Under the pieces are notes generated by a model that saw only the letters and a list, made by a program, of their open reading frames with translations, did not search any database and was not told the DNA's origin. A DNA stretch of 64,000 nt, from positions 1-64,000 of the IMG/VR virus record IMGVR_UViG_3300025133_005699; one strand, given 5' to 3'. The stretch comes from a virus. Shown piece after piece: positions 31,186-48,500 of this stretch. The first letter of the stretch is position 1. Every line of letters starts with the position of its first letter. The position numbers and the translations under genes were made by a program.

Positions 31186-31243
31186 ACTAACCCAGAGGGC
31201 CAGAGGTGGATAGTTATACATATATGTTAATAAGGAGAAAATT

Positions 31244-32272: not shown

Positions 32273-32279
32273 TAGATAA

Positions 32280-32330: not shown

Positions 32331-32365
32331 AAAGAGACGTTGGAATGGACTAAGGAAGGGTTTAG

Positions 32366-33415
32366 ATGTCAAATATAGATATCGAAAAAGCTTTATATAG
32401 AATTATACAAGGTCGCTTGCGCTATAAGGTGCGAGACGGCCTTGTTCTATATATACATGAGCCTACACCAGAGCTAGTCTATGAGTCTTATGACGTTTAC
32501 GATGAAGCCTACGAAAAGGCCTACTGGAGAGGTGTCTACGTTAAAGAAGAAGTCCTCCCCATACTCTTAGAAAACGATTACTGGAGCCCTCTAGACGACA
32601 AAGAGGCAGAAAGAGTCCAGAAGGAAATTGAAGACAAAAAGCTAGAAGCCTTTAAACAATTTATCCACAAGAAGCAGCTCGGCGCCATTAAAAGGGAAAT
32701 ATTCTACCTAGAGAAAAAATGGCAAAAGCTATATCTAAAAAAGAATTCTCTAGACCATGTAACATGCGCGGGATGCGCAGAGCTAACTAGAAACCAATGG
32801 CTTATTGAGAAGACAACAAGATTTCCTGATGGTTCTTCCTATAGTTGGAAAGAAGCCTCTGTCCCTAGCGCTACGAACTATAGAGCCTCTAGTGCTATTT
32901 CACAAGGGATGTATAGGTCTGTTGCTAGATCTGACACTTGGCGAGGAATGTGGGGCGCGGGCAAAGGAACAGAAATATTTGGGGTGCCCTTTTCTAGGAT
33001 TACGCAAGAGCAGGCTAGACTTTGCATGTACGCTAGAATGTATGATAACGTGGCGGAAAGTCCGGAAGCTCCCATAGAGGAGATAATAGCGGATGATATT
33101 TGTCTTGATGGATGGTTCATAGATCAGAAGAAAAAACAAGACAAGCAGAAGAAACAAAACCAAGTTGATGGGATGATCTCGAATGATAAGATTAAGAACT
33201 CTGGAGAGGTGTTTGTTATGGCTCAAGACAAAGAAGACGCCCAAGAAGTATACGATCTCAACGATGGGATGGCCAGAAGCACAGTACATCAGAGACAAGC
33301 ACAAATAGACGGGCAAGAGGACATGATGAAGTTCCAAGAGCTTGCAGACGTTAAACAAGATATAGGAATACAAAGACAACAACAGTTTAGTCAATCACTT
33401 AAAAATAGGAGATAA
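32366..33415 (+). CDS. Tail assembly chaperone-like protein (paralog A, with C-terminal extension)
   Basis: Between tube and TMP; N-terminal half aligns by eye with 33782..34786. Confidence 0.55.
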   Translation: MSNIDIEKALYRIIQGRLRYKVRDGLVLYIHEPTPELVYESYDVYDEAYEKAYWRGVYVKEEVLPILLENDYWSPLDDKEAERVQKEIEDKKLEAFKQFIHKKQLGAIKREIFYLEKKWQKLYLKKNSLDHVTCAGCAELTRNQWLIEKTTRFPDGSSYSWKEASVPSATNYRASSAISQGMYRSVARSDTWRGMWGAGKGTEIFGVPFSRITQEQARLCMYARMYDNVAESPEAPIEEIIADDICLDGWFIDQKKKQDKQKKQNQVDGMISNDKIKNSGEVFVMAQDKEDAQEVYDLNDGMARSTVHQRQAQIDGQEDMMKFQELADVKQDIGIQRQQQFSQSLKNRR

Positions 33416-33426
33416 AGGAATGAAAA

Positions 33427-33789
33427 ATGGATGATTACAATGCTTTACTGAAGCAGTCCCTTGACCTAAAGGGCAAGAGACAGGAAAAGTATAAAGAGCT
33501 ATCGAAGGATAGGCTGTATAAAATAGCTAAGAAAAAAATACAGACAACTATGATCGGTGCTTTGGATACGATAGAGAAAAGCTTTGGTTTTTTGTGGGAG
33601 TCCGATGAAGAATTAACTAATGAGCAAGTTCAACTTAAAACTATTTTTGAAGATGCTCGCTCACAAATTCTAGATCGGGGAAATACCCAAATGAGAAACC
33701 TAGAGGCGGAAATGACACAGTACGACATTTCTTGGAACAGACATACAATTAATTTACCAGTAGTAGAAAAAGGAGAAGATAATGAGTGA
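33427..33789 (+). CDS. Hypothetical helical protein
   Basis: 120-aa ORF with its own SD. Confidence 0.6.
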   Translation: MDDYNALLKQSLDLKGKRQEKYKELSKDRLYKIAKKKIQTTMIGALDTIEKSFGFLWESDEELTNEQVQLKTIFEDARSQILDRGNTQMRNLEAEMTQYDISWNRHTINLPVVEKGEDNE

Positions 33790-34786
33790 TAAGAAGGATA
33801 AAGATTTTGTAGAGGTTAACGCTAAAGACAAGAACGATAAAGACGTTACTGTCTGGGTTAAAAGACCTTCTACGGCAGAGTACAAGGATTCTCAGATTGA
33901 GTATAATAAGGCTTTTCGCGAAGCGTTAGAAGGCGGAGCTATTCTTAAGAAAAAGCTTGGCGAATACATGAGGTCTCAGGGGCTTTGGGATGATGCTAAA
34001 GATTCTGAAGAAAAGAAACTTCTTGCGGCAGTAGCAAAAGAAGAAGGCAAGCTCAAAAAGGGTGGTATCCCTCTTGAAGATGCTAAACAGATTGCGCTTG
34101 ACTTGAGAAAGACGCGCGCTAAATTTAGAACTCTAATCGCGGAGAGAACTTTGTTGGACTCTAATACCGTTGAGGGCCAATCTGACAATGCTCGCTTTAA
34201 TGCTCTAGTAACACTCTGTGTTTTGGATACAGATAAGATTACGCCAGTGTTTGAAGACTTGGCTCAGTATGATAAAAAGGGTGACGAGCCTTGGGCCATT
34301 GAAGCCGCTAGTGAGTTAGCTTCTTTGATTTATGAGTTAGATCCTAATTATGATAATACTCTTGAAGAAAACAAATTCCTCAAGAATTATAACTTTGCTA
34401 ATAAAGAAAATGAGCTGATTAATTCTGACGGGCATGCAATTTTTCTAGATCAGGAAACAGGCAAAGAACACCTGATCGAAACAGAAGGTATGCGATTTGT
34501 TGCTTATCGCACAGAAGAAGGTTATCAAAAGCAGGATGAAGAAGATAGATATTTCGTTAATAAAGACGGAGTTGAAATTGATGAAGATGGTAATCCTGTT
34601 GTAGATGACTTTGTTCCATTCTTGGATGATTCTGGCAAACCTATCCCTGTGCCTATTAGCGCAGAAGAGGCGGAAAAAGCTGCGGAAGAAGCCGAAACCA
34701 ATGAAGAAGAGGCTGAGACAGCTGAGGGCGAAGAAACCACATCAAAAAAGCGTGGTAGACCAAAAAAGACTGAAGAAGTTACATAA
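33782..34786 (+). CDS. Tail assembly chaperone-like protein (paralog B)
   Basis: VWVKRPSTAE...; acidic C-terminus; directly upstream of TMP. Confidence 0.6.
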   Translation: MSDKKDKDFVEVNAKDKNDKDVTVWVKRPSTAEYKDSQIEYNKAFREALEGGAILKKKLGEYMRSQGLWDDAKDSEEKKLLAAVAKEEGKLKKGGIPLEDAKQIALDLRKTRAKFRTLIAERTLLDSNTVEGQSDNARFNALVTLCVLDTDKITPVFEDLAQYDKKGDEPWAIEAASELASLIYELDPNYDNTLEENKFLKNYNFANKENELINSDGHAIFLDQETGKEHLIETEGMRFVAYRTEEGYQKQDEEDRYFVNKDGVEIDEDGNPVVDDFVPFLDDSGKPIPVPISAEEAEKAAEEAETNEEEAETAEGEETTSKKRGRPKKTEEVT

Positions 34787-34789
34787 TTT

Positions 34790-34805
34790 TGTGTATATAA
34801 ACGTG
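34790..34805 (+). promoter_or_regulatory. Late promoter motif, copy 8
   Basis: TGTGTATA taaacg TG. Confidence 0.75.
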
Positions 34806-34814
34806 GACAGTCTT

Positions 34815-34864
34815 AAAGGGGTAGCAAACGATACATATATGTATTTCGAGCTGCCCCTTTTTTT
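34815..34864 (+). terminator. Terminator-like hairpin in the TMP leader
   Basis: AAAGGGGTAGC...GCTGCCCCTTT stem with inner ATACAT/ATGTAT palindrome, then a T run. Confidence 0.75.
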
Positions 34865-34891
34865 ATATCAAACAGAGCATGAGAGGAGAAT

Positions 34892-37800
34892 ATGTCAAAA
34901 TTCAATTTAACAGCGCAGTTGAGCTTGGCGCCTCCTACAAACGTTCCTCAAATAGTTAGGCAGGTTAATCAGCAGCTTCAGGGTATACAGATGCAGATTA
35001 ACCCTGTTGTTAATGCCAAATCTCTTAACCAAGCAAATCAGGCTGTTCAGAGGGTTGGAGTAAGTGCAAAGGTTACTTCCAAAAATCTAAATACTGCTGC
35101 CGGTTCGGCAAACAGTTTGGGTTCTGCATTAGGGGCGGCGGCTAGAAGGTTCGCCTCTATTACGTTGGCTACGGGTTTCTTCTTAGCCTTGACTAGAGCT
35201 CTAGGTTCTGCTGTTGGTAGGGCTATCGAGTTTGAGAAAGAGATGTTGAAAATTTCTCAGGTTACTGGTAAATCAGTGCGGTCACTTAGGGATCTCAGTA
35301 ATGAGGTAACAAGACTGTCTGGTAATCTAGGTGTATCCTCCGAAGAATTATTAAATGCTGCGAGAACTTTATCTCAGGCAGGTTTTGCTGCCGACAAGGT
35401 AACTGGGGCGTTGAAGGTTTTAGCTCAGACTGATTTAGCTGCTACGTTTGATAACATTAAAGACACGACAGAAGGCGCTATAGCTATTCTTAGTCAGTTT
35501 AGAAAAGAAGTTCGGGCGGCGGGCGGAGAAGTTCAGTTCTTAGAAATGGCTATGGACTCCATTAACGCAGTCTCTAAGAGTTTTGCTGTCGAGTCTGCCG
35601 ACCTTATCTCTGTGGTCAGAAGGACTGGTGGTGTATTCGAGGCTGCCGGTGGTAAGCTAAATGAATTGATTGCCTTGTTTACATCTGTTCGTGCGACAAC
35701 CCGTGAAACCGCTGATACTATTGCTACTGGTTTTAGAACTATCTTTACTCGTATCCAGAGGTCTGAAACTATTGATAGCCTTAGAGAGCTAGGTATTGTT
35801 CTTCAGGATACTGAGGGCAAATTTGTTGGCCCAATGCAGGCTATAGCGAGACTCTCTGCCGGATTACAAGCTCTTGATCCGAGAGACTTTAGATTTAATG
35901 AGATTGTAGAACAGCTTGGTGGATTCCGTCAAATTGGTAAGGTTATCCCTCTTATTAAACAGTATACCACGTCTACTGAGGCCTTAGCGGTAGCGAATAA
36001 CGCGATGGGTTCTACCGCTAGAGATGCAGGTATTGCTCAACAGGGTCTTGGCAACCAGTTTGCACAGCTGAAAGAAAAGTTTGATGCCACTGTTCGTTCT
36101 TTGGCTGATAGTGATACATTTCAAACCCTAGCCACATCGGCAATTAAAATGGCTGAAGCCATATTGAGAATTGTTGATGCCCTTGAGCCATTGCTTCCTA
36201 TGTTGACTGCTCTGGCGGCATTTAAGTTAGGTCAAATTGCAATTCCGGCGTTTGGTAAATTTGCCGGTATTAGCGCAAATGCGGGTGGTAAAATACACGG
36301 CTTCGCTGGTGGTGGTATGGTTCCCGGTCGAGGAAATAGAGATACAGTTCCGGCGATGTTAGAGCCCGGTGAGTTCGTTATGCGCAAATCCGCAGTCAAG
36401 AAAATTGGCGCGAACAATATAGCACAGATGAATAATGGCTATGCTGCGGGTGGTATTGTTACTGGGAGACGAAATAATTATGGTTTTAAGCCAAACAAAA
36501 AAACTTTTGATAAAGCCTTGACGCCGGAAGATAAAGCGCGATTGTTAGGTACGTCAGAATTGGCATCTAAAGAGACATCTGAGGACGCCAAAGTTTTAGC
36601 TGCTATTGGTAAAGCGAATGCAACTTATGGCCTATCTACAGGCACGGTTCCGGGTGGTTTTTCTCTTGACGCATCAACTAAGCAGGTTAAAGAAATAACA
36701 AGTGACAAGCCTTTAGGCAGCATCCCTCTTACCAAAATGACAGCTAAGGATTTTCAAATATTTGCCAAGGGCATTATGGCAAAAGTGCCGGGATCTACCA
36801 TTGATGATGTAGCTCAGGCACAGAGATCAGGCGTTACGACTAATGCAACCATGCAGGCTTCGTCATACCCTATTGCTTCTATTGTAGAAAGTGGTGTGAG
36901 GTCCCAAGTAGACAGCGATCTGCAAGCTAGTGCTGCGCAAGGACTAAAAGACTCTGTTGAAGAGACAATATCAAGATTACAGTCTAGTGACGCGGGTGCA
37001 ACCGTTAAGAATATGGGACTAACACTCAGTAGGGGTGCAGCACAACGAGCTGCGACAACCACCTCGAAAGATGAGCAAGCAGTTTCCTCGATGGTCGGGT
37101 TTTTGTTTGAGGGTGTTATTGATGCTATGTCGGGTGCAACACCTGCGGGAGAGAGAGCTAGTTTTGACTTACCAAGAGAGTCTGTAAGCTCAGCAAGACC
37201 TGAGTTAGTGAAATTGTTTGGTTCGCAGGCTAACCAAATGAAAATGGCCGAAGTCAAATCTTCTTTTGGAAAGCTATCCCAAATTCCAACAAAACTAAAA
37301 ACATTTATAGGCGAACAAAGCAAAGTAGGACAAAGAACAACGGGAATAGATTTAAAGCGTGTAGGCTTCGCCAAAGGAGGTAAACCAAAAGGCACAGACA
37401 CTGTTCCCGCAATGCTCACACCCGGTGAGTTTGTAATGAAAAAATCCGCCGCTCAGGGTATAGGTTATTCCAACCTTCATAGAATGAATCAATCTAATGG
37501 TGTTAATGGATATGCCGCCGGTGGTATTGTTACTGGGACAAGAGGGTTTTACGGGAATGGAGTGCCCGGTGGAGGCGCGTCTATAGGAACTATTCCCGGC
37601 ATAGAAAGCGCGTCTAAAGGCTTTACACAACTTGCTAAAAGTATAGGGGATCTTGTTGGACAGCTGATAAGAGCTGGCGAATCTATTACATTGGGCGCAA
37701 ATTCAGCGTCTGAAAAGCTGGTTCAGGGTGCAAATGTACTTGGGCCGGAACTCAGTCAGGCGGGTCAGGCATTTATAGGTTTGCCCGCAACGATTTTGAA

Positions 37801-40800
37801 CCTGTTGGATGATGGAGCAGTTCAGCTCGGAACTGGCCTAGCAGACGCCGCCAAAGGAATAGGCTCTATAGACAATATAATGATAGAAGCCCTTACGGCA
37901 TCATTAGCCCCTTTCACAGCAGCTATGGCAGATGCTTCCAAGGGAATTAGCGCTGTTGACAACATAATGAACACCACTATGACAGGAGCAATGGCACCAC
38001 TCAAAACATCACTGTCATTGCTTGATGGAGAATTTAAGAAGTTTGGTAAAGAGCTAATGCTTAAGCTCAAATATTTTGATATTTTAAAGAAAGCCAATAC
38101 TGATCTAGTTACCGTTATGAACGATCTCGGCAAGAAGCTTATAGAAAAGGGTGATGATTTTGACATATTGAAACCACCTATTGCCACTGTCGAGCAGGCA
38201 CTTATTAGGGTTTCTGGTTACCTGAACAACTTTTATCAGATCTTTACGCCACTTGCGGGGGCTGTGCGGCAACTTTCTGTCGCCATGCAGAATCAGGCGG
38301 GAACAATAGCTGCAAGCGGTGCAGGAGTTGCGGCAGGAGCGGGCGGTGCGGCACTACAGGGGCCCATGACTCAGCTAGCCGCGAACATGTCTAGGGCAGC
38401 CAAAATTATGAGCAATATTGCAATCATTGGTGCTAGCCTTCAGCGGGCGATGGCTAATATGGTTGCGTCCCTTAATTCGGGTAAAGGTAGTATAAATAAT
38501 ATAACTATTAATTCCGCAGCCACAGCTCAGGAATTAGCCGAGCTAAAGGCTGAACTAGCAAAGGCCCAAGCTAGAATACTAGAGTTGGAAACTGCCGCAG
38601 CGCAAGCCTCCACCCAAATGAAAAAGACTGGCGCTAGTGGTGGCGCAGCCGCCGGAGGCATGATGATGGGTGGTGGTGGTGGTGGTGGTGGCCAAATGGG
38701 GAACAACCTAATGATGGCGGGCATGGCGGCGGGGATGGTTGCCCAGAGCATGGACGGGCTGAACGACAAAACAAAAACTTTCGTGACAGATCTTACCATG
38801 ATTGGTATGATGTTGGGGATGGTTGCAATGTCCTTTTCTCCTATACTAGCGGGCCTGTTTGTACTGACTGGATCTTCGACCACAGCCGCTGCGGCACTTT
38901 CCGCACAGACTGCGGCGACAGCTGTTGAAGTTGCGGCATCTGAAGCGGCGACTTTAGCGAAAATGCAGGAGACAGGTGCCGGATTCTCCGCAGCCGCGAT
39001 AGATGCACAGAAAACGGTTGCCGGTGGTGCTGCTACCATAGCCGATAGACTCAAAACCGTTGCTGCCGCCGATGCGGCGAAGGCAGATGCAATGAAAGCC
39101 AGTGCCGCCATGCTGGCAGGCGGAGTTATGGCAGGTATGGCGATAGCCGCCACTTATGTTATAATGAGAAGTAAGGCGCTTGGTGAACAGGCGAAAAAGC
39201 TAACCGAGGAATATCAAGATTCTATAAAAGGGTTGCAGGAGGGTGGCGCAGGTACGAATCTCGCAGACGCTCAGGCTAAAGTTAGAGCTGCCCTTCAGAA
39301 AGAGGCAGAAGCCGCTGGGGCTACATTCAGTGGTTTCTTAGCGATGACGGCAGCGGCTATTGTAGTTGTCGTCTCTGCGATTGCCCTATTTATCGCGGGG
39401 GTTGCCACGGGTGGTCTGGCTTGGGCGGCTGCGGCAGCCATTTTTATTGGGGCGGCTGGAGCTGCTGGGGCGGAAATAGGGGCGGCGTTTGCAACGGCCG
39501 AGGAGGCGATAGGGGCGTCTACTGACGCTTTAGTAGCATCAACGTTCCATGCCGCCACAGCTCTGAACGGACTTACTGCGGCAAACCAAGCTATGGAACT
39601 TGAGCAGCTTAGCGGCGTTGCGTTAATGGAGAGACAAGGACAGGCTTTTGACGACTTCTATGCTTCTTCTCTCCAAGCCGCCGGAGCTATGGCGTCTTTT
39701 CAGGGGATGGAAGCTGGTATGGATCAGGAGTTCAGGGGTGAGATGATGGACTCAGACGTCTTTGAGGCCGTCAAGGATGGTGGGGTTGATGCAATGAAGG
39801 AGTTAAGTCAGGCATGGTTTAAAATGGCTTCCGACATGAAGAACGGCATGAATAGTGCTGTAGACGAAATGATTAAAGGTGGTAAATCTGCCAAAGACGC
39901 GATGGATAGCGCCGCAATACAGGGTCAGCTTAAAAAGTACGGAGCTGCCGTCGAGATGGCTACGCGACTCCAGATGATGATGAGCGGACTCCAAAAACAA
40001 GCAGCTAAACAGCAGCTGGGGCTTGCTGGCATGACAGACGCAGAAATGTCTCGGGCTCAGCGCCTTCAGGTGATGGCGAGGGAAAAAGAGCTTATAGATG
40101 CGCAATCCGCTGATACAGCTAAGAAAGCGTCAGCCGCTCAAGAAAAATCAATGCGGGACAGGTTAGAAGCTGAGGCAAAAGCGAAAAAGGCTGCGGCAGA
40201 AAAGCTCGCTGCGGACATAGCTCTCGCAAAACAGGCATATCGATCTGCTTTAGCGTTAAGCACGTTTGAGGTTGCCATGGTTGGGCTGAGCGGCGCGATG
40301 AGCATGGCAGATATGGAATTTGGGGCCCTTACCGGCAGTATAAAACAGTTTAAATCAGTTAACGATAAACTAATTTCCACCTTAGCCTCTGGAAATGTTT
40401 CTCCCGAGGCTGAACAAGCAGCAATGGCTACGGCTGGCCAATTTGGACTAGAGGGGGAGACAGTCGCTCTTATTCAAAAAATGAAAGATAACGAAAAAAT
40501 ACGAAAAGTATTGACCGAAAAGGGGATGGAGGCATTTAGTGGAGCACTTGAGGAGAGCGCAGCAAATTTAAGGTTTGATGAATTCATGAGAGATCAGGGT
40601 ATTGATCTGTCTGGACTTGACGCTGACATAAGAACAGAAATTATGAATATGCTAGAGGATGGGCTTCAGCCGGGCGAGATTGAAGAAATCATGAATAAAA
40701 TAAATGGCGCCAATGAAGAGCAGATAAAGGTGCTTGCGGAACTAGCCAAAGCACAGAATGATTATGTTGGTGCTCTGTTTAAATTTGGTGGTGAGGTAGT

Positions 40801-43800
40801 AAAGCTCAATGAACTATATGCTAAGGCTATTAGTAATGTAATTAGCGTCCAGCTAAAGGGAGCAGAGCGCCTAGCTAAGGCTCAAGGAAGAGACATGACC
40901 GTGGGAGATGTTAGGGCGGCAGAAGAAGCTAAAAGAAGAGCGCCATTACAGGCAAGAGGTCTTGTTGGAGGTGGAGTCGGCGCTACGCAAATACAGCTAG
41001 AAAGAAACAGACAGAAGGCTAGGGAGCTGGCCAATAGAGTTAAGGCAGAGGCTGAGGGCGGTCAAGACGCAGAAACAATAACCAATCTACAAAACGAACA
41101 AAAAAACCTAGCATCTGAGACCAACGCTCTTACGGAGAACCTTAAGAAACTTTCAGATCAGTCTAAGTTGGCCGCCGCCATTATGGGCGAGATAGATAAA
41201 GAAAAGGGAAAACGGGAGACAATAAGAGGTTTAATCTCCGAGTTTACCTTTGCTAGTAATCAGGGCCGGAAGGATATGGATAGGAATTTCATGGCTCTCC
41301 AGAGGGTGATGGAGACTGGGAGCTTGAATAGTATTCCGGACGAGATGAGGTCTGCTGTTGGAGGGTTATTAGGAACCCTTGAGGATATAGCGATTGGGCC
41401 ACAAGGTCAAACGGGTGGAGAAATCAAGAAGATGCTAGAGATGCAGATGGCTAACCAGCTTAAGATTAGAGCTACTGGTAGGCCGCTTACTGCGGAAGAG
41501 ATGCAGAGAATATTTGATAAAACAACAAAAGAAGAGAAACTTATAGATGACCTAAAAGCTCTTAATGCCGAAGAGGTTGCGGCGGCGACGGCTCTCGCTG
41601 ATCATCAAGCAGATAAGATTGACGACTTGTTGGTGGGAATTGAGAGACTCATTGCAACCCTAGAGGCTGCGCAAGCGAATGCTGGTAATGCGGCACAAGG
41701 TGCGATGCAGCAGATGCAGATACAAGGGCCTATGCATGGAGGGTTAATTCAGAGATTCGCAGAGGGTGGAACAACAAAAGCAGCAAGATATACATCGAGC
41801 AGTAAAAATATGTTCCAGCCGCGAGGCACAGATACTGTTCCCGCCATGCTTACTCCGGGTGAGTTTGTTATGCAGAAGAGCGCCGTGGATAGTATTGGGT
41901 TATCAACCCTAAGTTCTATGAATAGTGGCAAGAAGCCTATCTATAGGCAGGCGGGTGGTCCTGTTACGAGTTGGACGAATTTTAACCAAGAACAACTCAA
42001 TAAAGGTGTTCAGATATCGCCAGAATTACAGAAGATCCAAGACACTATTTTAAACGGTATAACTAATAGTATTAACAGTATCGATAAGTTAAATTTTGCA
42101 GAGCTTAATCCTGCGATTGATGGTAAAAAAATAATAGAGGCCGATACGGGCTGGCCGATGGGCGGAGCGAATTGGAAAAATTTTGAAATGGATACTGGGG
42201 CTGGCGGTGCTGTTTTTCTACAAAACGGTGCCTTAGCTAGGGCTGCGCTAAACGATAAGGCGAAGCAGGGGATTAAGGCGTGGAGTCTGCTGGCAACCCC
42301 TCTTGGTGCAATCAATGACCCCCTTCTGATGGCAAACCTTATGTTACAAAAATATGAGGGAAAAGATGCTGCTAGAGCTATCCAAGCCCATAGATTCTTT
42401 TACAATAAAACATATCCGAATGGTGGCCGCATAGGAAACAATAAAAACACGCTCGCTTATGACTGGTGGGATATTGACGAAAATACTGGGACTCGTAATA
42501 CGCTAACGGCTCTTGTGACCTCTTCAAGTACAGACGACGATACGATTCAGGGGGATATTTCAGGTGGCCTTATTCAAAGCGTAATGGGTTCTGGGCAGAT
42601 TAGGGACTGGTATAAGGATGGTGGAACAGGCGACTTGGGCTATAAAGATCTCGATAATGTTAAAAATGTGGAACGCACGGGCCCAGCGATGGCAAATATA
42701 TTTAAGCAATATACCGAAAATTCTACATGGCCATGGAAATCACATTCTTCAGATCTATATGGAGGGACTAGTGTAGCCGGTATAAATTATGGACTACCCT
42801 ATCCTCCTAGCGAAGAACGTGGATTAATAATTCCAAACCGAGCAACCGCCGGAACCCTTATGGGTAATCCGGGCAAGCAACAGTTTCAATGGTTGAGTGG
42901 TTCTCGTTTTAGGGGGACCAAGTCTGTAGAACAAAACGAAGAGTACTACCGCGCTTTGCTTAAGAGTGGGGAATTTAATGATGTGAAAATGCCGCTCTTC
43001 GTTATAGATCAGCTTGCTGGGGGAGCTATGAAGTCCGCATCTTCTGCTTATGGTAGCTTTTTGCACGACAATTTATTTAACGAAGCAATGCAGGGTCAGC
43101 TTAAAGAGTTTTATACAGACCCAAACGCGGCGACCGCAGAATTTCAAATGGGCAACATAGCCAACGCACTTACAAATGCCGCATATGGTAACTGGTCGGG
43201 TACACCCAACGCACAGGCTATGCTCAAAGTTGATGGTGCGATATCCGCAATGCCAAACTTTGAGCTAGATACGGCTGCAAAATCTGGGTTTACTGGCGGG
43301 CCTTTTGGAGACACTGAGGTAGCAAAGGCCTTTAAGGGAAAAGTTGGATACATTCCTTGGAGTCTTCAGCATGAGCCAGTGTTAAATCGCGGACTACTAC
43401 AGAATCTTATGGACATGCAGGCGAATGCCACGGGGAGACTCGCCGCAGCTAACAACATAACTAACGGTTGGGGCGCAGAGTTCACAAACCTTTGGAAGAA
43501 TAGCGACGCTGAAAATAAAGGTCAGTCGGCGGAATTTCTCGCAACAAAGATTTCAGAGCTTTTTAATAAGATAGAGGGAGGAAATGATGTTTGGGGAGCA
43601 CCTCTTTTGGGTGTCATCAAACAACAACAAGAAGCCGCTGCCGCCGACGCAGCAGCACAAGAAGCCGCCGCTGTGGAAGAGGTTGAAGGTAGGGTCGTGC
43701 CAAATCTAGATGTTTTCTATGGCGGTGATGCTCAAAAAGCACAGGCTTTACTGACGGCTCTTGGAGAATATCCGGGTCGCGACAAAGCACCAAAAGGTAT

Positions 43801-45559
43801 ATATCGAATGCCAGCATACTCAGGATTACGCGGAGAGGAGGGTGTCATTGATGAAAAAACGGGCAACCCAAGGCGAATCTTCGCCATAACAGATATCAAG
43901 CGTAATAAAGATCATTTTGATGCAATGTTCCCGTTCTTTAAGGAACTCAGTAACGAGATTTTGGGTATGGCAGGACAGGGCTATATTACGTCAGCTTCTA
44001 CGGATGGAGGTGTTGGGTTTAATCCACAGAAAATGGCAGACCTTGGCGGAGGAATAGGTGGGGCGAGTAGGGATGCTCTAGCGCGTTGGTCAACGCTGGA
44101 GGATGTATCCAGTTGGTATGGTAAAGACGGACTCCCAGATAGAGAAGCAGAGAAGATGATTGGCCTGTTTTGGAATTTTAAAAAGGTAAACACAGCTCTT
44201 AAAAAGATGCAGGGAAATGCACGAACAGCAATGCGAATGGCTGAGGAGCAAAATAACGGAATGTGGGCTAGATCTGGCCTGTTTGGTGGCGATGTCAAAA
44301 ATTATCCAGACTGGCTGAAACCCGCACAAAGAAATCAACCAAATCAACGACCAAACCAACAGCCAAACCAACCCCAGCAGATTCCCCAACAAAACGCACA
44401 AGGCCAAGCATTCGCAACAGGTGGCCCAGTAGGAATAGACTGGTCTCCAAGAGGAACTGACACCGTTCCCGCGATGCTAACACCCGGCGAGTTTGTTATG
44501 AAAAAATCCGCCGTAGACAAGTACGGCATAGGCTTTATGGCTGCTATTAATGAAGGCAGAGGAGGTTCTGGAGGATATATGCACGAAGGTGGTGTTGCTA
44601 GTGGTAGTGTTTCACAGTTTGGCCCACAAGAAGACTTGCGTATCGATAGAGTGTTAAGCAACACGAAAACAACCTCCAACACCGTTAAGAAGATAGCGGG
44701 CATGATAACCAATGTGGACAATAAAACCACTAATCAGGAAGACCTATTAAATAGTTTTAACACAATGAGTGAAGCTGATTCGGCACTTTCCGCCCAAATC
44801 CAGTCGGGACTCTCCGCCATACTCAATCAGCGAATAGACCTCCCCGAAGATCTTGGTGAGGGTATTGTTGGTCGTCTAACAGGTGAATTTTTGGCTCAGC
44901 TTGGCACCCTCAGACAGGAGATGGACACAGAGCATACAGACCTAAAGAAACAAAATCGACGAATGCTGAAGCGGACGCGGGGGAATTTCGGTATATTGGC
45001 AGGCGCCATACCAGCAATGATGAGACCTTTTAATCCGGCGGGACCCCCTCAGTTTATGGCCACGGGAGGTATGGCTAGAGGAACCGACACTGTTCCCGCA
45101 ATGTTAACTCCCGGCGAATTTGTAATGAAGAAAAGCGCTGTTGATAAGTATGGCGTAGGCTTTATGAGAAGCCTTAATAATGGTGCCTCTCCTACATCAA
45201 GGTCAAGAGGTGTACAATACCTTAAAAATGGAGACTTGGCAACATCGGGTGGCGGAAACCTCTTTGCGGGGGTCGGAGATATTGTTTCTTCAATTAGTGA
45301 CTCTTTATCTGCCTTTACTCAAGCTTTTAGCTTATTTAGTGGGCTTTCTAACCTGCTAAGCAATACAATTAATAGTATGGCAGACATGAACATAACCCAT
45401 AATATTAACATTAATGGAAGCGTAAACATTCCGGGCTTCTCAAAGAGGGCAGTCAAAAAGATAATTAACGCCGTAGTTGAAGAGGTTGTTGATGACGTAG
45501 ACGCGAAGATAGACCAAGCTTTTGCAGAGCGAGACAGGAACAACGAGAACAGAACATAA
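34892..45559 (+). CDS. Tape measure protein, 3555 aa, with five repeated modules and cargo-like regions
   Basis: TP901-type N-terminal TMP domain (FEKEMLKISQVTG, INAVSKSFAVES, IATGFRTIFTRIQ), Ala-rich helical and hydrophobic spans. Confidence 0.9.
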   Translation: MSKFNLTAQLSLAPPTNVPQIVRQVNQQLQGIQMQINPVVNAKSLNQANQAVQRVGVSAKVTSKNLNTAAGSANSLGSALGAAARRFASITLATGFFLALTRALGSAVGRAIEFEKEMLKISQVTGKSVRSLRDLSNEVTRLSGNLGVSSEELLNAARTLSQAGFAADKVTGALKVLAQTDLAATFDNIKDTTEGAIAILSQFRKEVRAAGGEVQFLEMAMDSINAVSKSFAVESADLISVVRRTGGVFEAAGGKLNELIALFTSVRATTRETADTIATGFRTIFTRIQRSETIDSLRELGIVLQDTEGKFVGPMQAIARLSAGLQALDPRDFRFNEIVEQLGGFRQIGKVIPLIKQYTTSTEALAVANNAMGSTARDAGIAQQGLGNQFAQLKEKFDATVRSLADSDTFQTLATSAIKMAEAILRIVDALEPLLPMLTALAAFKLGQIAIPAFGKFAGISANAGGKIHGFAGGGMVPGRGNRDTVPAMLEPGEFVMRKSAVKKIGANNIAQMNNGYAAGGIVTGRRNNYGFKPNKKTFDKALTPEDKARLLGTSELASKETSEDAKVLAAIGKANATYGLSTGTVPGGFSLDASTKQVKEITSDKPLGSIPLTKMTAKDFQIFAKGIMAKVPGSTIDDVAQAQRSGVTTNATMQASSYPIASIVESGVRSQVDSDLQASAAQGLKDSVEETISRLQSSDAGATVKNMGLTLSRGAAQRAATTTSKDEQAVSSMVGFLFEGVIDAMSGATPAGERASFDLPRESVSSARPELVKLFGSQANQMKMAEVKSSFGKLSQIPTKLKTFIGEQSKVGQRTTGIDLKRVGFAKGGKPKGTDTVPAMLTPGEFVMKKSAAQGIGYSNLHRMNQSNGVNGYAAGGIVTGTRGFYGNGVPGGGASIGTIPGIESASKGFTQLAKSIGDLVGQLIRAGESITLGANSASEKLVQGANVLGPELSQAGQAFIGLPATILNLLDDGAVQLGTGLADAAKGIGSIDNIMIEALTASLAPFTAAMADASKGISAVDNIMNTTMTGAMAPLKTSLSLLDGEFKKFGKELMLKLKYFDILKKANTDLVTVMNDLGKKLIEKGDDFDILKPPIATVEQALIRVSGYLNNFYQIFTPLAGAVRQLSVAMQNQAGTIAASGAGVAAGAGGAALQGPMTQLAANMSRAAKIMSNIAIIGASLQRAMANMVASLNSGKGSINNITINSAATAQELAELKAELAKAQARILELETAAAQASTQMKKTGASGGAAAGGMMMGGGGGGGGQMGNNLMMAGMAAGMVAQSMDGLNDKTKTFVTDLTMIGMMLGMVAMSFSPILAGLFVLTGSSTTAAAALSAQTAATAVEVAASEAATLAKMQETGAGFSAAAIDAQKTVAGGAATIADRLKTVAAADAAKADAMKASAAMLAGGVMAGMAIAATYVIMRSKALGEQAKKLTEEYQDSIKGLQEGGAGTNLADAQAKVRAALQKEAEAAGATFSGFLAMTAAAIVVVVSAIALFIAGVATGGLAWAAAAAIFIGAAGAAGAEIGAAFATAEEAIGASTDALVASTFHAATALNGLTAANQAMELEQLSGVALMERQGQAFDDFYASSLQAAGAMASFQGMEAGMDQEFRGEMMDSDVFEAVKDGGVDAMKELSQAWFKMASDMKNGMNSAVDEMIKGGKSAKDAMDSAAIQGQLKKYGAAVEMATRLQMMMSGLQKQAAKQQLGLAGMTDAEMSRAQRLQVMAREKELIDAQSADTAKKASAAQEKSMRDRLEAEAKAKKAAAEKLAADIALAKQAYRSALALSTFEVAMVGLSGAMSMADMEFGALTGSIKQFKSVNDKLISTLASGNVSPEAEQAAMATAGQFGLEGETVALIQKMKDNEKIRKVLTEKGMEAFSGALEESAANLRFDEFMRDQGIDLSGLDADIRTEIMNMLEDGLQPGEIEEIMNKINGANEEQIKVLAELAKAQNDYVGALFKFGGEVVKLNELYAKAISNVISVQLKGAERLAKAQGRDMTVGDVRAAEEAKRRAPLQARGLVGGGVGATQIQLERNRQKARELANRVKAEAEGGQDAETITNLQNEQKNLASETNALTENLKKLSDQSKLAAAIMGEIDKEKGKRETIRGLISEFTFASNQGRKDMDRNFMALQRVMETGSLNSIPDEMRSAVGGLLGTLEDIAIGPQGQTGGEIKKMLEMQMANQLKIRATGRPLTAEEMQRIFDKTTKEEKLIDDLKALNAEEVAAATALADHQADKIDDLLVGIERLIATLEAAQANAGNAAQGAMQQMQIQGPMHGGLIQRFAEGGTTKAARYTSSSKNMFQPRGTDTVPAMLTPGEFVMQKSAVDSIGLSTLSSMNSGKKPIYRQAGGPVTSWTNFNQEQLNKGVQISPELQKIQDTILNGITNSINSIDKLNFAELNPAIDGKKIIEADTGWPMGGANWKNFEMDTGAGGAVFLQNGALARAALNDKAKQGIKAWSLLATPLGAINDPLLMANLMLQKYEGKDAARAIQAHRFFYNKTYPNGGRIGNNKNTLAYDWWDIDENTGTRNTLTALVTSSSTDDDTIQGDISGGLIQSVMGSGQIRDWYKDGGTGDLGYKDLDNVKNVERTGPAMANIFKQYTENSTWPWKSHSSDLYGGTSVAGINYGLPYPPSEERGLIIPNRATAGTLMGNPGKQQFQWLSGSRFRGTKSVEQNEEYYRALLKSGEFNDVKMPLFVIDQLAGGAMKSASSAYGSFLHDNLFNEAMQGQLKEFYTDPNAATAEFQMGNIANALTNAAYGNWSGTPNAQAMLKVDGAISAMPNFELDTAAKSGFTGGPFGDTEVAKAFKGKVGYIPWSLQHEPVLNRGLLQNLMDMQANATGRLAAANNITNGWGAEFTNLWKNSDAENKGQSAEFLATKISELFNKIEGGNDVWGAPLLGVIKQQQEAAAADAAAQEAAAVEEVEGRVVPNLDVFYGGDAQKAQALLTALGEYPGRDKAPKGIYRMPAYSGLRGEEGVIDEKTGNPRRIFAITDIKRNKDHFDAMFPFFKELSNEILGMAGQGYITSASTDGGVGFNPQKMADLGGGIGGASRDALARWSTLEDVSSWYGKDGLPDREAEKMIGLFWNFKKVNTALKKMQGNARTAMRMAEEQNNGMWARSGLFGGDVKNYPDWLKPAQRNQPNQRPNQQPNQPQQIPQQNAQGQAFATGGPVGIDWSPRGTDTVPAMLTPGEFVMKKSAVDKYGIGFMAAINEGRGGSGGYMHEGGVASGSVSQFGPQEDLRIDRVLSNTKTTSNTVKKIAGMITNVDNKTTNQEDLLNSFNTMSEADSALSAQIQSGLSAILNQRIDLPEDLGEGIVGRLTGEFLAQLGTLRQEMDTEHTDLKKQNRRMLKRTRGNFGILAGAIPAMMRPFNPAGPPQFMATGGMARGTDTVPAMLTPGEFVMKKSAVDKYGVGFMRSLNNGASPTSRSRGVQYLKNGDLATSGGGNLFAGVGDIVSSISDSLSAFTQAFSLFSGLSNLLSNTINSMADMNITHNININGSVNIPGFSKRAVKKIINAVVEEVVDDVDAKIDQAFAERDRNNENRT
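36302..36454 (+). repeat. TMP module 1
   Basis: FAGGG..RDTVPAMLEPGEFVMRKSAV..IG..MN.GYAAGG. Confidence 0.9.
37367..37525 (+). repeat. TMP module 2
   Basis: FAKGG..GTDTVPAMLTPGEFVMKKSAA..IG..MN..GYAAGG. Confidence 0.9.
41756..41959 (+). repeat. TMP module 3
   Basis: FAEGG..GTDTVPAMLTPGEFVMQKSAV..IG..MN..YRQAGG. Confidence 0.9.
44411..44593 (+). repeat. TMP module 4
   Basis: FATGG..GTDTVPAMLTPGEFVMKKSAVDKYG..IN..YMHEGG. Confidence 0.9.
45053..45232 (+). repeat. TMP module 5
   Basis: FMATGG..GTDTVPAMLTPGEFVMKKSAVDKYG..LN..YLKNG. Confidence 0.9.
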
Positions 45560-48500
45560 TGGCAACAAAATCACTACATATACAGAATGATCAGACCGAC
45601 GATGCTGGTGTATACCAGCGTAACAGGGGTGCGGATCTTTTTATGGAAGCTCCCGGCGGAATTCAGCAGTTTACAAACTTTGACGCCAAAGTTACGTCTT
45701 ATAACAATAGTGGTAACGAGGTCAAAGCGGGATTCTTTGATAGCCCATATAGATATAGGGAAGTGTTCAGAACATACGGCAACGCCACCAATATGCCTTT
45801 CGAGTATGAGAATGGCCAGTACTCCCCAAGCGACATAAAGATTCTTGATGATATAGCTATCGTTGCCTATAAAGAGCATAGCCAATCAGTTTATACTGTT
45901 AATCAGGAACTAGAAGGCGGGCATGTCATTATAAAAGTTACATATGAAAAGACTGGCGAAAAGGTTGAAGCTTTTAGAAGTGTTGATCTTAATAGCGGGT
46001 TGGTCATTCCGGACCTTGGAACCGCAGCTAGAAACTTAACGGAGTTTACTGGTAGCAACGAGATACCGGGCACTAATGCTGGCATAAATGCTGGATATAG
46101 TATTCAACCTATTGGAGATGTTGCTGATGCTTTGGGGATAGGTCCGACTACTGAGAGTGGAAGTACTGGGCCATGCGCTGATGGTTTAGTAGGGGATACT
46201 TGGACTTGGAATATGTCCGAAGAGGAGCCGGGATGGACAATAACCTCTCCGGGGGAATGTGCAGCGGCAGGGTGCGGCAGCCTGCCTCCTGCTTATGAGG
46301 GGGGGTCTGATCTTGAAACAGGAGTAGGGCGTTGTGGTGTGGATGATACGATTGTATATGATCCGTTTGTATCCGATGATGATATCCCGAAGAAGGTTAA
46401 CGAGGGGGTTCAAGGTTGCGCAGGTCCGACAATGCCCGCAGACGCACTAGAGAATAAAGACAGCGCAATATTCTTCAGTCAGGTAAAGAACAAAAAGGGC
46501 GAAATTATTGACGTTCTTCAGGGGCTTGTGGTTGATTTTACACACGGTTCAACACCTGATGACGCAACACTGTTAAGCCTCAAGAGCATGTCTAATGCTA
46601 ACTTGATATGGGTAGATGAGTGCTCCGCCGATTACGTGACTTACTATTATAAGGTTCCGGTCCCGCTGTCAGGTTACTACTACCAATACGGACAGAAGAC
46701 CCAGTGCGGAAGAGTGGATATTTTTGAGCGGCGTAGCGGGACTATAACAGCTGTTGACGGGAATAAGATTACGGTAACAGGACCAACTGGAGATGGTGAG
46801 TTTGATATTCATCTGCTGAATGACTACGATAGAATTAAAATTGTTTCTGGGGTAAACGAAACTAAAAAAGATCACCCCCATCCTATTAACGGAATTAAGT
46901 ACGTTAAACGACTTCCTGATTTGTATAATTCTGAAACAGAGAAATATGATATCCCTGTGGATAATCAGTATTATATATATGATGATGAAAACTTAACAAT
47001 GGAAACAGAGACCTCGTCTCTTAGGGGTACCGATGGGCTACTATGGGCTTTTCAGCCGGACGACCCTAACTCTCGCACCGCAATGCCGTGGAGCACCGCT
47101 GGTTCGAACAAAGGCGCAGTTGGGGTTTGGAGATATAAGCAAACATTGTTTTCCCCTCACGGCCTCAACGGAGATGGTGTGATATCTCGCGGGACTACAC
47201 CCTATATAAACGCGATGGGCATAGCGCCAATATCTGATTATGGGGGTGGATATGATGGCGCAATGGAGGACGATATAGAAAGAGTCAGCGATATTCGCAA
47301 TGCTATGCATTTAATGGCGTGGGGATATAGGTTTGGTCAGGCAATAGATATTATAAAACAGCCCGGCACAGATTATTACTGGCTTGCTATTAGCGAGCTG
47401 GGGAATATAGCCAATGCAGATAGTGGAATGACTTATTTTGGGGAGATTCAGACTGTTACTGGCATGAGCCCTGTAGTTAACGTTCCGACTTACGATGAGG
47501 AGGGCAAAATTAACGGATATATAAAACGAGGTATAGGTCTACAAGCAGCTATTGACTTCGGTCTAGATCCCACAACGAAGGGGCTAGCCACGATATTTAT
47601 AAATCATGAGACTGGTAAATATGATCAATCTATCGACTGGAACAACATAGGAAACTATTCTTACGGCGGGTTCGAGGATGATATAAAAAGCGCGAAGAAG
47701 GGTATAACCACAACTATTGTTTCTCCCTTTGGGTATCAATCCGTTCCGCCACTTAGCAAAGGATATGGGAAGGTTTGGCTTTACAAGGTAAGCATGAATA
47801 GTGCTGACTCTGCTATTCAGGCAATAGAAACCCCTGAGGAGATTAATGCGGGAACAAGAAATGGTCACGTTTCCTCAACTTCCGTTTTTACAAGGCGCCT
47901 GATGGATGTGTTCGCAACGGTCGGAGGTTTGTACTGGTTTAGAGCATGGATTTCTAACCTTAAGGCTGGACTGACTGGGTCGCCAAAACATTTCAAGACC
48001 CATAGAAGTAATGTCAACACCGGCAGTTTTGGCACCACGGCTTCTGATCAAATCCATTATAATTTTGGATACCCCGAAAGATGGGCACCTTCATGGATAG
48101 ATGGAGACGAAGACGAATATGGAAATCCGGGCGGATTTGATTCGGGTACGGGTGCTGATCTGCCCGACGGCGGTATGATGGGCGGCATGGGTATGGGCGG
48201 TGACGGTATGGGCGGTGACGGTATGGGCGGTGACGGTATGGGCGGTGACGGTGGCGACGGAGTCGAACCTGTCAGTCGTTCCGCTGGTACAAACCTATTG
48301 TTTGTTAAGTCGCAGAAGTTCGTAGCTGAGCTAATTACATATCAAGAAGAGTTCTCAAAAACGTGGGGCGATTCCGACGGGGGTGTTGATTTGTTTCGAG
48401 AATGGGTGATTCCTTATTATAGGACTAACGAGTCTCCGTTTCACCCCTATCAAACATCCATGAATGCCATGACTAATGGCTTTAAATTCGCTGACGGGTT

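What the first reader, a model, noticed from the sequence alone, without database searches (positions are those of the whole stretch)
34892..45559. Tape measure protein built as a polyprotein: five AxGG-bracketed modules separating cargo blocks
Seen: five copies of a 50-70 aa module, [F/M]AxGG-linker-DTVPAML(T/E)PGEFVMxKSA-xxx-G-xxxxxxxN-linker-xxxGG, at 36302, 37367, 41756, 44411 and 45053 (the closing motif is degenerate in copy 5). They divide the protein into the N-terminal TMP domain, a ~300-aa globular block, a long helical/hydrophobic block, an ~800-aa Trp/Tyr/Gly-rich non-helical block, a ~150-aa block and a C-terminal tail. Knowledge (from memory): lambda gpH has one related FATGG...GEFV...YATGG segment near its C-terminus, and gpH is proteolytically processed during tail assembly. 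Inference: the module is a processing or release element, multiplied here so that the tail lumen carries several separate proteins that are ejected with the DNA. This would be a TMP-based effector delivery system. The module DNA is still similar between copies, so it could also anchor cassette swapping by recombination.
Basis: partly seen in the sequence, partly recalled or inferred. Interest (0 to 1): 0.9.

Follow-up and report, generated by a model that had tools for sequence, protein, structure and literature searches.

The report
Giant tape measure with swappable cassettes
The 3,555-residue tail tape measure protein of an uncultured marine phage carries five copies of a short junction motif, also present once in phage lambda's gpH; the motifs separate highly variable blocks that related phages swap by recombination, which suggests passenger proteins injected with the DNA, though release by cleavage is not shown.

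Summary
ORF 34892-45559 encodes 3,555 aa with a PhageMin_Tail domain and five copies of a 50-70 aa module (HMM i-E 1e-22 to 1e-27). The module is homologous to lambda gpH 732-786. No Pfam or NCBIfam model matched it, and it is unresolved in the solved tails.

- All 121 large relatives carry 2-8 modules, and protein length rises with module number (r=0.80).
- The modules are old, position-specific paralogues.
- In a near-identical IMG/VR phage, S2, S4a and S5 are replaced while the flanks stay 92-100% identical. Five of six breakpoints lie at module edges. Three further loci share the S2 breakpoints.
- Some relatives hold an ADP-ribosyltransferase domain exactly between two modules. A cultured cyanophage virion protein has the module just upstream of a glucosaminidase.
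- Lambda's single module starts the cleaved gpHC fragment.

Not shown: any cleavage here, any protease, or any function for this phage's own cassettes. S2 has a conserved G-E...D...K core, but the model is helical and gave no informative fold match. S4 has only seven relatives among 1.84 billion representatives.

I rate this a new variant of a known kind. An earlier first-stage note covers this same stretch from an overlapping window of the same genome.

The parts
34892..45559 (+). Tape measure protein gene, 3,555 aa, no cysteine
   Evidence: ORF. PF10145 at aa 137-341. The N-terminal part hits 14 PHROG families annotated as tape measure protein. Composition.
34892..36301 (+). Conserved N-terminal domain (aa 1-470), ending in a hydrophobic stretch
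   Evidence: 44-94% identical in 117 of 121 relatives. 386 metagenomic relatives found.
36302..36460 (+). Module 1 (FAGGG...DTVPAMLEPGEFVMRKSA...YAAGG)
   Evidence: All 79 first-position modules in related loci match it best. It is a breakpoint in four relatives, at 36454-36484.
36461..37366 (+). Cassette S2 (302 aa): hypervariable, with a conserved G-x-x-F-E ... F-D ... (D/E)-x-K ... K core in its C-terminal half
   Evidence: 36 sequences are 11-31% identical. G213, E217 and K278 are invariant; F216, D236 and K266 are near-invariant. AlphaFold2 gives pLDDT above 90 for residues 146-288, all helical. No informative fold or family match.
37367..37531 (+). Module 2
   Evidence: All 52 second-position modules match it best. 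Similarity to relatives resumes at 37376-37397.
37532..41755 (+). S3 (about 1,408 aa): helical ruler block with Gly/Ala/Met-rich membrane-like stretches
   Evidence: Composition and hydrophobic stretches. 96% DNA identity to the close relative.
41756..41962 (+). Module 3 (long linker between FAEGG and the core)
   Evidence: DNA identity falls from 100% to about 45% just after it.
41963..43606 (+). Cassette S4a (about 548 aa, rich in Trp/Tyr/Phe/Gly)
   Evidence: About 45% DNA identity to the close relative; the protein is still related (z=110). No family hit.
43607..44410 (+). S4b (about 268 aa), starting after a Gln/Ala/Glu linker and ending in a Gln/Pro/Asn linker
   Evidence: 94-100% DNA identity to the close relative in 90-nt bins (mostly 99-100%), higher than the backbone. 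Occurs joined to other N-terminal parts in P0124-P0126.
44411..44626 (+). Module 4
   Evidence: Identity drops at 44597-44622.
44627..45055 (+). Cassette S5 (about 143 aa)
   Evidence: No similarity to the same slot in the close relative (z=0). 77-78% identical to the slot in P0006 and P0018, whose other blocks differ.
45056..45256 (+). Module 5 (closing motif degenerate)
   Evidence: Identity returns to 93-98% at 45047. 14 of 18 last-position modules match it best.
45257..45556 (+). C-terminal tail S6 (about 100 aa). By analogy with lambda, T5 and Douge it is the part that docks in the tail tip.
   Evidence: Conserved in 47 of 121 relatives. The analogy rests on PMC10721106, PMC10038345 and PMC13033339. 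It is inferred, not tested.

Best explanation
This is the tape measure protein of an uncultured marine long-tailed phage, found on a 105.8-kb metagenome contig. It belongs to a large, undescribed family of 2,000-6,000 aa tape measure proteins.

The protein has a conserved N-terminal domain, a helical and membrane-active ruler block (S3) and a C-terminal docking tail. Between these lie five position-specific copies of a 50-70 aa junction module ([FY]AxGG, linker, DTVPAMLTPGEFV, short helix ending in N-x-G, [FY]xxGG). The module is the same element that occurs once in lambda gpH (732-786), at the start of the cleaved gpHC fragment.

The modules delimit passenger cassettes (S2, S4a/S4b, S5). Related phages replace whole cassettes by homologous recombination between modules at the same position.

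I infer that the cassettes lie in the tail lumen as part of the tape measure protein. On infection they would leave the tail ahead of the DNA and act in the host envelope or cytoplasm. That makes the protein both a ruler and a carrier of variable, lineage-specific passengers.

Whether the passengers are cut free next to each module, as lambda gpHC is, or stay tethered is open. I put cleavage at most modules at about 35-40%.

Shown: the modules, their homology to lambda, their positional conservation, the cassette replacement at modules, and enzyme cargo in relatives. Inferred: location in the lumen, ejection, effector roles and processing.
For: - **Modules and homology.**. Homology to lambda gpH and to two copies in mycobacteriophage Douge gp16. 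Hits near the C-ends of many PHROG tape measure families.
- **Family-wide architecture.** All 121 relatives of 2,000-6,000 aa have 2-8 modules. Length tracks module number (r=0.80, about 536 aa per module).
- **Position-specific paralogues.** 79/79, 52/52, 25/36 and 14/18 modules match the window's copy at the same position.
- **Independent variation.** The N domain is conserved in 117 of 121 relatives. S2 is conserved in 13, S4 in 6 and S5 in 5. The slot between modules 3 and 4 holds 25 segments in 20 unrelated clusters.
- **Cassette replacement.** Against IMGVR_UViG_3300009370_001679 the flanks are 92-100% identical, while S2 and S5 are unrelated and S4a is about 45% identical. Breakpoints lie at 36454, 37394, 41775-41991, 43577, 44622 and 45053. 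L003, L010 and L011 share the S2 breakpoints. Across 49 genes, 20 of 39 internal HSP ends lie within 45 nt of a module, against 4.3 expected.
- **Cargo.** In P0083/L047, PF03496 at 923-1135 lies between modules at 816-858 and 1147-1193. S-SCSM1 gp159, annotated as a virion protein, has the module at 605-644 and a glucosaminidase at 697-816.
- **Link to processing.** A lambda gpH* of about 78 kDa implies a cut at about 710-732, directly before the module (PMC12617516). T5 pb2 is cut between its membrane segment and its muralytic domain, and both pieces stay in the tail (PMC10038345).
Against: - No cleavage has been observed for any member of this family.
- No protease domain was found in the protein or in the neighbours that were scanned.
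- None of this phage's own cassettes has a recognisable enzyme domain. 18 of 20 diverse cassettes from relatives also have none.
- S2 is present at the same position in most relatives, so it behaves like a fixed part rather than optional cargo.
- One of the six breakpoints lies in a linker inside S4, not at a module.
- The cleaved T5 pb2 shows no detectable module, so tape measure cleavage does not need it.
- Lambda lacks the Asp and Asn that are invariant here.
- The tail lumen is narrow, so folded 300-800 aa domains in three or six copies would have to travel unfolded.
Confidence: 0.6

Rival explanations
1. True polyprotein. Each module is a processing signal. During tail maturation the protein is cut next to every module into about six separate proteins, which lie in the lumen and are ejected individually as free effectors.
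For: - Lambda's single module begins the fragment that is cleaved off gpH (PMC12617516).
- Processing of tape measure proteins at the C-terminus, the N-terminus or internally is described as common (PMC1796659).
- T5 separates its muralytic domain by cleavage (PMC10038345).
- Enzyme domains sit directly beside or between modules.
- Asp, Gly-Glu and Asn are invariant across 105 modules.
Against: - The site and catalyst of cleavage are unknown even in lambda, and the mass estimate places the cut before the module, not within it.
- No protease was detected here.
- T5 is cleaved without a detectable module.
- Only 2 of 84 loci have modules in two reading frames, and neither split falls at a module. 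Evolution therefore does not treat the pieces as separable genes.
- The Douge tape measure protein has two modules and is described as a 1,699-residue trimer, with no cleavage reported in the passages read.
Confidence: 0.3
2. Structural joints only. The modules are uncleaved staples or docking elements. They might hold the three or six chains in register on each side of non-coiled-coil inserts, or bind the tube wall, the tail chaperones or the hub. On this view the variable blocks are fast-evolving host-envelope interaction or spacer parts of one continuous protein, not effectors.
For: - The modules are strictly position-specific and ancient, as expected for structural parts with fixed partners.
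- S2 is a fixed, homologous domain in most relatives.
- Most cassettes have no enzyme signature.
- In T5, the residues before the cleavage site bind the opened hub by beta-sheet addition (PMC10038345). The module has a strand-turn-strand-like core.
Against: - ADP-ribosyltransferase and glucosaminidase domains next to modules are hard to explain as spacers.
- Unrelated sequences of 250-960 aa are tolerated in one slot. This argues against a precise structural role for the blocks themselves, though it says nothing about the modules.
Confidence: 0.3
3. Fusion relic. The internal modules are leftovers from end-to-end fusions of several shorter tape measure genes, each of which once ended in a lambda-like module and tail. 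They have no present function beyond neutral linkers.
For: - The first 525 aa (PhageMin_Tail domain, hydrophobic stretch, module) resemble a complete short tape measure protein without its tail.
- Length rises stepwise with module number.
Against: Near-invariant residues are kept across 105 diverged modules whose flanks have lost all similarity. Positional identity is conserved across hundreds of relatives. Both indicate strong purifying selection on the modules.
Confidence: 0.08

Closest known systems
Phage lambda gpH, cleaved to gpH* and gpHC
   Same: The module is homologous to gpH 732-786. In both proteins a hydrophobic or Gly-rich stretch comes before a module and a short C-terminal tail follows the last module. 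Lambda is cut close to the N-side of the module, and gpHC stays in the tail tip (PMC12617516).
   Different: Lambda has one module; this protein has five, and relatives have 2-8. Lambda has no cassettes between modules and no known enzyme. Lambda lacks the invariant Asp and Asn of the module.
Phage T5 pb2, cleaved after R1127 into pb2* and the muralytic pb2C
   Same: A tape measure protein that carries an enzyme, is cut between its membrane-inserting part and its cargo, and ejects both (PMC10038345). This is the best functional precedent.
   Different: No module is detectable in pb2. T5 has a single cargo and no evidence of cassette exchange.
Actinobacteriophage tape measure proteins with embedded motifs (TM4 gp17 Rpf-like motif; Douge gp16, Gordonia GMA4, CicholasNage)
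   Same: Small functional motifs embedded in a ruler (PMC1796659). Douge, GMA4 and CicholasNage each have two copies of the same module, with 235-400 aa between them.
   Different: They are much shorter (about 1,650-1,760 aa) and have two modules at most. No cassette-level mosaicism has been reported. The block between the CicholasNage modules gave only a weak match to a PDB LysM-domain protein (E=0.002).
Virion-packaged injected enzymes and polymorphic-toxin fusions (T4 Alt ADP-ribosyltransferase, MuF-toxin fusions); from my own knowledge, not tested here
   Same: A phage structural or internal protein carries a variable enzymatic domain into the cell with the DNA. An ADP-ribosyltransferase is among the cargo in relatives.
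   Different: Those proteins travel in the head, not as part of the tail tape measure. None uses a repeated junction module.
T4-like cyanophage tail-lumen/hub proteins (S-SCSM1 gp159, S-SM2 gp012)
   Same: One module each (i-E 1e-20 and 4e-24). In S-SCSM1 it lies about 50 aa upstream of a glucosaminidase domain, and the record calls gp159 a virion protein.
   Different: They are myophages, with a single module in a 766-950 aa protein.

Membership tests
Phage tail tape measure protein (PhageMin_Tail / TP901-type) | PF10145 domain in the N-terminal part | tested here: met
   E=1.4e-23 at aa 137-341. 14 PHROG families annotated as tape measure protein hit aa 20-458.
Phage tail tape measure protein (PhageMin_Tail / TP901-type) | Long helical protein with hydrophobic membrane-inserting segments | tested here: met
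   S3 is 55% helix-forming residues and has transmembrane-like stretches at 1297-1336, 1405-1425 and 1474-1527.
Phage tail tape measure protein (PhageMin_Tail / TP901-type) | Gene lies between the tail chaperone genes and the tail tip genes | tested here: inconclusive
   It lies downstream of terminase and capsid-like genes and upstream of ORFs of 3,087, 491, 1,261 and 1,139 aa. None of the immediate neighbours has a Pfam or PHROG hit.
Phage tail tape measure protein (PhageMin_Tail / TP901-type) | Protein length sets tail length | not testable with these tools
   There is no virion image or cultured isolate.
Lambda gpH C-terminal module | Sequence homology to gpH 732-786 (FATGG...GEFV...YATGG) | tested here: met
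   phmmer E=3.7e-4, profile search E=1.1e-4, and i-E 1.1e-9 with the 105-sequence profile.
Lambda gpH C-terminal module | Single copy next to the C-terminal tail | tested here: not met
   There are five copies. Only module 5 has the lambda-like position.
Lambda gpH C-terminal module | Proteolytic cut close to its N-side during tail maturation | not testable with these tools
   Needs virion protein chemistry. In lambda the cut is placed by mass only, at about 710-732.
Self- or protease-processed viral polyprotein | A protease domain in the protein or encoded nearby | tested here: inconclusive
   No protease family appeared in Pfam, PHROG or NCBIfam scans of the protein or in the Pfam or PHROG scans of the neighbours examined. 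Most neighbours are unannotatable, so a protease is not excluded.
Self- or protease-processed viral polyprotein | Mature products that correspond to the segments | not testable with these tools
   No proteomic data. The indirect test by gene fission gave 2 of 84 loci, neither split at a module.
D ... (D/E)xK residues in that order | tested here: met
   E217 is invariant; D236 and K266 are near-invariant in 36 sequences of 11-31% identity.
   The AlphaFold2 model (pLDDT above 90 for residues 146-288) is almost entirely helical, with only single-residue bridges at 237 and 263. Foldseek found nothing at E<=0.001. The wide structural search (VIA-align) gave only helical hairpins at Z<=6.4.
ADP-ribosyltransferase cargo (PF03496) | PF03496 domain within the protein | tested here: not met
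   Absent from this window's protein. Present in relatives P0083, P0094 and L046, where the STS and ExE motifs are visible but the first-motif Arg is not obvious.

The most novel reading that the evidence does not exclude
The [FY]AxGG-DTVPAMLTPGEFV module is a general, portable release or hand-over signal for proteins carried in phage tails. Wherever it occurs (lambda gpH, actinophage and vibriophage tape measure proteins, cyanomyophage hub proteins) the chain would be cut or unlatched beside it. In this marine family it has been multiplied, so that one gene loads the tail lumen with several separately released, recombinationally exchangeable effectors such as an ADP-ribosyltransferase or a possible nuclease. 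That would be a tail-based counterpart of polymorphic toxin systems.
Probability: 0.25. Interest if true: 0.9.

Novelty: new variant of a known kind. Interest (0 to 1): 0.66.

Why it matters
It has been known for about 50 years that lambda gpH is cut, but not how or where. The motif studied here marks that region. No Pfam or NCBIfam model matched it, and it is not resolved in the solved tail structures I checked. It occurs in phages of Vibrio, Mycobacterium, Gordonia, Stenotrophomonas and cyanobacteria.

A family in which the motif is repeated up to eight times, always at the borders of exchangeable blocks, provides a natural experiment for its function. It also shows that a tail tape measure can act as a modular carrier. 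In some members the carried block is an ADP-ribosyltransferase.

If the blocks are delivered into the host, these abundant uncultured marine phages inject a large and rapidly reshuffled set of unknown proteins. That matters for host takeover and anti-defence biology. The junction module could also be used to load foreign proteins into phage tails.

Tried and rejected
- **Family scans.** Pfam, PHROG and NCBIfam scans of every segment found nothing beyond PF10145 and the module's hits to PHROG tape measure families.
- **Phage collection.** DNA and protein searches of 50,697 phage records with the whole gene, S2 and S4 found no match. The N domain with module 1 found only a 25.6% identical Rhodococcus phage tape measure protein.
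- **ESM Atlas.** No usable hit for S2 or S4.
- **Structure of module 1 + S2 + module 2.** The single-sequence AlphaFold2 model had pLDDT 38.7 and was uninformative.
- **S2 model.** Foldseek on the PDB and the wide structural search (VIA-align) gave only generic helical matches. The S2 profile against PDB sequences found nothing. No standalone S2 homologues of 123-595 aa were found.
- **S4.** Among 1.84 billion representatives it has seven hits. Three carry modules and the rest look like tape measure fragments. Iterated HMM searches did not link the other blocks in the slot between modules 3 and 4 to S4.
- **Complex prediction.** Complex prediction with three copies of module 4 returned no verdict (score 0.02). 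It is not evidence either way.
- **Module in T5 pb2.** Not detected by the PDB sequence searches.
- **Gene fission at modules.** Not seen.
- **Actinophage blocks between modules.** Against PDB sequences, nothing for GMA4 and a weak hit to a LysM-domain protein for CicholasNage.
- **Literature.** No paper describing the motif was found in the held library. PMC3907469 is not held.
- **Idea rejected.** I considered a JAB/MPN-type protease cutting after Gly-Gly, as in lambda gpK (from memory). No such domain was found downstream.
Full report
**1. The observation**

The window holds one open frame at 34892..45559 (+) of 3,555 codons. It is followed by a 3,087-codon frame whose start overlaps its stop. 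The string DTVPAML.PGEFVM.KSA occurs five times, at aa 484, 836, 2314, 3190 and 3399. Each copy is preceded by [FM]AxGG, at nt 36302, 37367, 41756, 44411 and 45056. Copies 1-3 are followed by a second aromatic-x-AGG motif. This closing motif is altered in copy 4 and degenerate in copy 5. A profile of 105 module sequences finds only these five sites in all six frames of the window, with i-E 1.5e-22 to 2.6e-27.

**2. What the protein is**

Residues 137-341 are a PhageMin_Tail domain (PF10145, E=1.4e-23). The first 470 residues match 14 PHROG families annotated as tape measure protein. The gene lies downstream of a terminase, a minor capsid protein and a fibre protein. It lies upstream of four very large ORFs that have no Pfam hit. 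The exact protein is recorded on a 105,810-bp metagenome contig. No record among 50,697 deposited phage genomes is related, apart from a 25.6% identical actinophage tape measure protein. In metagenomes the N-terminal domain has at least 386 relatives, many from marine samples including Tara viral fractions. This is therefore the tape measure protein of a common but uncultured phage lineage.

**3. What the module is**

It also matches two sites in the mycobacteriophage Douge tape measure protein and one in a 1,158-residue tape measure protein, PDB 8rk3. It hits positions near the C-ends of many PHROG tape measure families. It occurs in 80 cultured phage records from Vibrio, Mycobacterium, Gordonia, Stenotrophomonas, Clavibacter and T4-like cyanophages. 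No Pfam or NCBIfam model matched it.

In the solved tails only the extreme C-terminal helices of the tape measure protein are resolved: lambda 818-849 and Douge 1658-1699. The module's structure is therefore unknown.

In lambda the module follows a Gly-zipper-like hydrophobic stretch (691-731). From the sequence, a gpH* of about 78 kDa and a released fragment of about 14 kDa place the cut at roughly 710-732, directly before the module. The 2025 Ur-lambda paper states that the exact site and the catalyst are unknown and that gpHC remains in the particle (PMC12617516).

**4. The architecture is a family trait**

All 121 relatives of 2,000-6,000 aa returned by the first search contain 2-8 modules, most often four. 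Protein length rises with module number (r=0.80, about 536 aa per module).

The copies are not recent repeats. Within this gene they are only 49-65% identical at the DNA level, and the longest exact run is 18 nt. Modules in relatives match the window's module of the same rank: 79/79 for the first, 52/52 for the second, 25/36 for the third and 14/18 for the last. Across 105 diverged modules Asp, Gly-Glu and Asn are invariant, and about a dozen further positions are nearly so.

**5. The blocks between modules vary independently and are exchanged at the modules**

Against the query, the N domain is 44-94% identical in 117 of 121 relatives. S2 is alignable over half its length in only 13, S4 in 6 and S5 in 5. 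Combinations are uncoupled. For example, P0006 and P0018 share S5 at 77-78% identity but S4 at only 22-27%.

The clearest case is IMGVR_UViG_3300009370_001679 (loci L001 and L002; its tape measure protein has 3,575 aa and five modules).
- DNA identity is 92.5% from 25867 to 36454.
- There is no similarity across S2 (protein z=2.5).
- Identity is 96% from 37394 to 41773.
- It is about 45% across S4a (the protein is still related, z=110).
- It is 94-100% in 90-nt bins (mostly 99-100%) from 43607 to 44596.
- There is no similarity across S5 (z=0).
- Identity returns to 93-98% from 45047.

Five of these six breakpoints lie at module edges. The sixth lies in a Gln/Ala/Glu linker inside S4. Three further loci (L003, L010, L011) lose similarity at 36480-36484 and regain it at 37376-37397. 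Over 49 tape measure genes, 20 of 39 internal ends of high-identity HSPs fall within 45 nt of a module, against 4.3 expected. Reciprocal pairs are counted twice there, so the effective sample is about half.

The slot between modules 3 and 4 holds 25 segments that fall into 20 unrelated clusters, 247-959 aa long. Iterated profile searches do not join them.

**6. What the cassettes are**

*This phage's own cassettes.* No family, fold or language-model match was found for S2, S4 or S5.

S2 belongs to a homologous but extremely diverged set (11-31% identity). It has an invariant G-x-x-F-E, a near-invariant F-D and (D/E)-x-K, and an invariant K. This is the residue order that an earlier first-stage note read as a PD-(D/E)xK nuclease. 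The AlphaFold2 model built with this alignment is confident for residues 146-288 but almost wholly helical. It finds no nuclease or other informative fold. The nuclease reading is therefore neither confirmed nor excluded.

S4 has only seven relatives among 1.84 billion representatives. Three of these carry modules, and the rest look like tape measure fragments.

*Cassettes in relatives.* P0083 (=L047) has an ADP-ribosyltransferase domain (PF03496) at 923-1135, exactly between modules at 816-858 and 1147-1193. It forms an extra module-plus-cassette unit. The STS and ExE motifs are visible. P0094 has the same domain just before a module.

In the cultured cyanophage S-SCSM1, gp159 (annotated as a virion protein) has the module at 605-644 and a glucosaminidase domain at 697-816. 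Eighteen of 20 other diverse cassettes have no Pfam hit.

**7. How it most likely works**

*Shown.* The protein is a tape measure protein whose conserved junction modules delimit exchangeable blocks. In related proteins some of those blocks are enzymes.

*From published work.* Tape measure proteins fill the tail lumen and leave it ahead of the DNA. T5 pb2 is cut between its membrane-inserting part and its muralytic domain, and both pieces stay in the tail and are expelled (PMC10038345). Lambda gpH is cut just before its module, and gpHC stays in the tip (PMC12617516).

*Inferred.* The cassettes here are passengers carried in the lumen and delivered to the host envelope or cytoplasm. S3 provides the ruler and the membrane channel, and S6 docks in the tip.

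*Open.* It is not known whether each module directs a cut. No protease, no fission at modules and no proteomic data support it. T5 is cleaved without the module. Lambda lacks the Asp and Asn that are invariant here. I put processing at most modules at about 35-40%. The main rival is that the modules are uncleaved structural joints or docking elements. A three-copy complex prediction of the module gave no verdict and is not used.

**8. Comparison with what is known, and novelty**

Enzymes embedded in tape measure proteins are known (TM4, T5 and others), and so is tape measure cleavage (lambda, T5). Four things appear to be undescribed in the library searched:
- the module as a defined, widespread element;
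- its multiplication to 2-8 position-specific copies in a large family of giant marine tape measure proteins;
- whole-cassette replacement with breakpoints at the modules;
- an ADP-ribosyltransferase as one such cassette.

I class the finding as a new variant of a known kind. Interest is moderate to high. It gives a concrete handle on the unsolved gpH cleavage question and points to tail-borne delivery of variable proteins. The central functional claim still lacks direct evidence.

An earlier first-stage note (e1-6008345) covers this same stretch from an overlapping window of the same genome. I did not look for it on other DNA in the scan's notes.

Noticed in passing
window 45559-54822 (+): A 3,087-aa ORF starts at the stop codon of the tape measure gene and has no Pfam hit. 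The three following ORFs (491, 1,261 and 1,139 aa) also have none. They are presumably tail tip and fibre proteins of an undescribed type. The first about 1.8 kb is 73-82% identical to the close relative and is itself patchy.
   Followed up: partly
window 43607-44596: S4b plus module 4 is 94-100% identical in 90-nt bins (mostly 99-100%) to IMGVR_UViG_3300009370_001679, while the surrounding backbone is 92-96% identical. This suggests a very recent transfer of this piece between the two lineages.
   Followed up: partly
window 34892-45559: The 3,555-residue protein contains no cysteine at all.
   Followed up: no
window 6171-7337 (+): A GDP-mannose 4,6-dehydratase (PF16363, E=6.6e-116) is encoded upstream of the structural genes. 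It is a sugar-nucleotide enzyme carried by the phage.
   Followed up: no
window 9381-11381, 15104-15568, 17518-17931 (+): These are the only other recognisable structural genes scanned: large terminase (PF03237), an XM1 gp53-like minor capsid protein (PF23982) and a GP4 gp80-like fibre protein (PF23140, E=5e-32). The nine ORFs scanned between 26832 and 34786, just upstream of the tape measure gene, have no PHROG hit.
   Followed up: partly
L010:1294-11920 (Ga0208030_1001697): In this relative (N domain 94% identical) the tape measure gene changes frame about 330 codons after module 3. The distal part, which carries one more module, continues in an overlapping frame. This is either an assembly error or a real frameshift. 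L008 shows a similar two-part arrangement with a 250-nt gap.
   Followed up: no
L040:10284-12755: The cassette between modules 3 and 4 of this relative has a significant hit to the eukaryotic SLA1 homology domain 1 (PF03983, E=2.3e-9). This is an unexpected family for a phage tail protein.
   Followed up: no
L091:2177-5029 (Synechococcus phage S-SCSM1 gp159) and L092:2963-5263 (S-SM2 gp012): T4-like cyanophages carry one copy of the module in a 766-950 aa protein encoded after the baseplate hub genes. The module is therefore not confined to siphophage tape measure proteins.
   Followed up: partly
window 36461-37366 and alignment A4: No homologue of the S2 domain was found as a free-standing protein of 123-595 aa. 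It was seen only inside giant tape measure proteins.
   Followed up: yes
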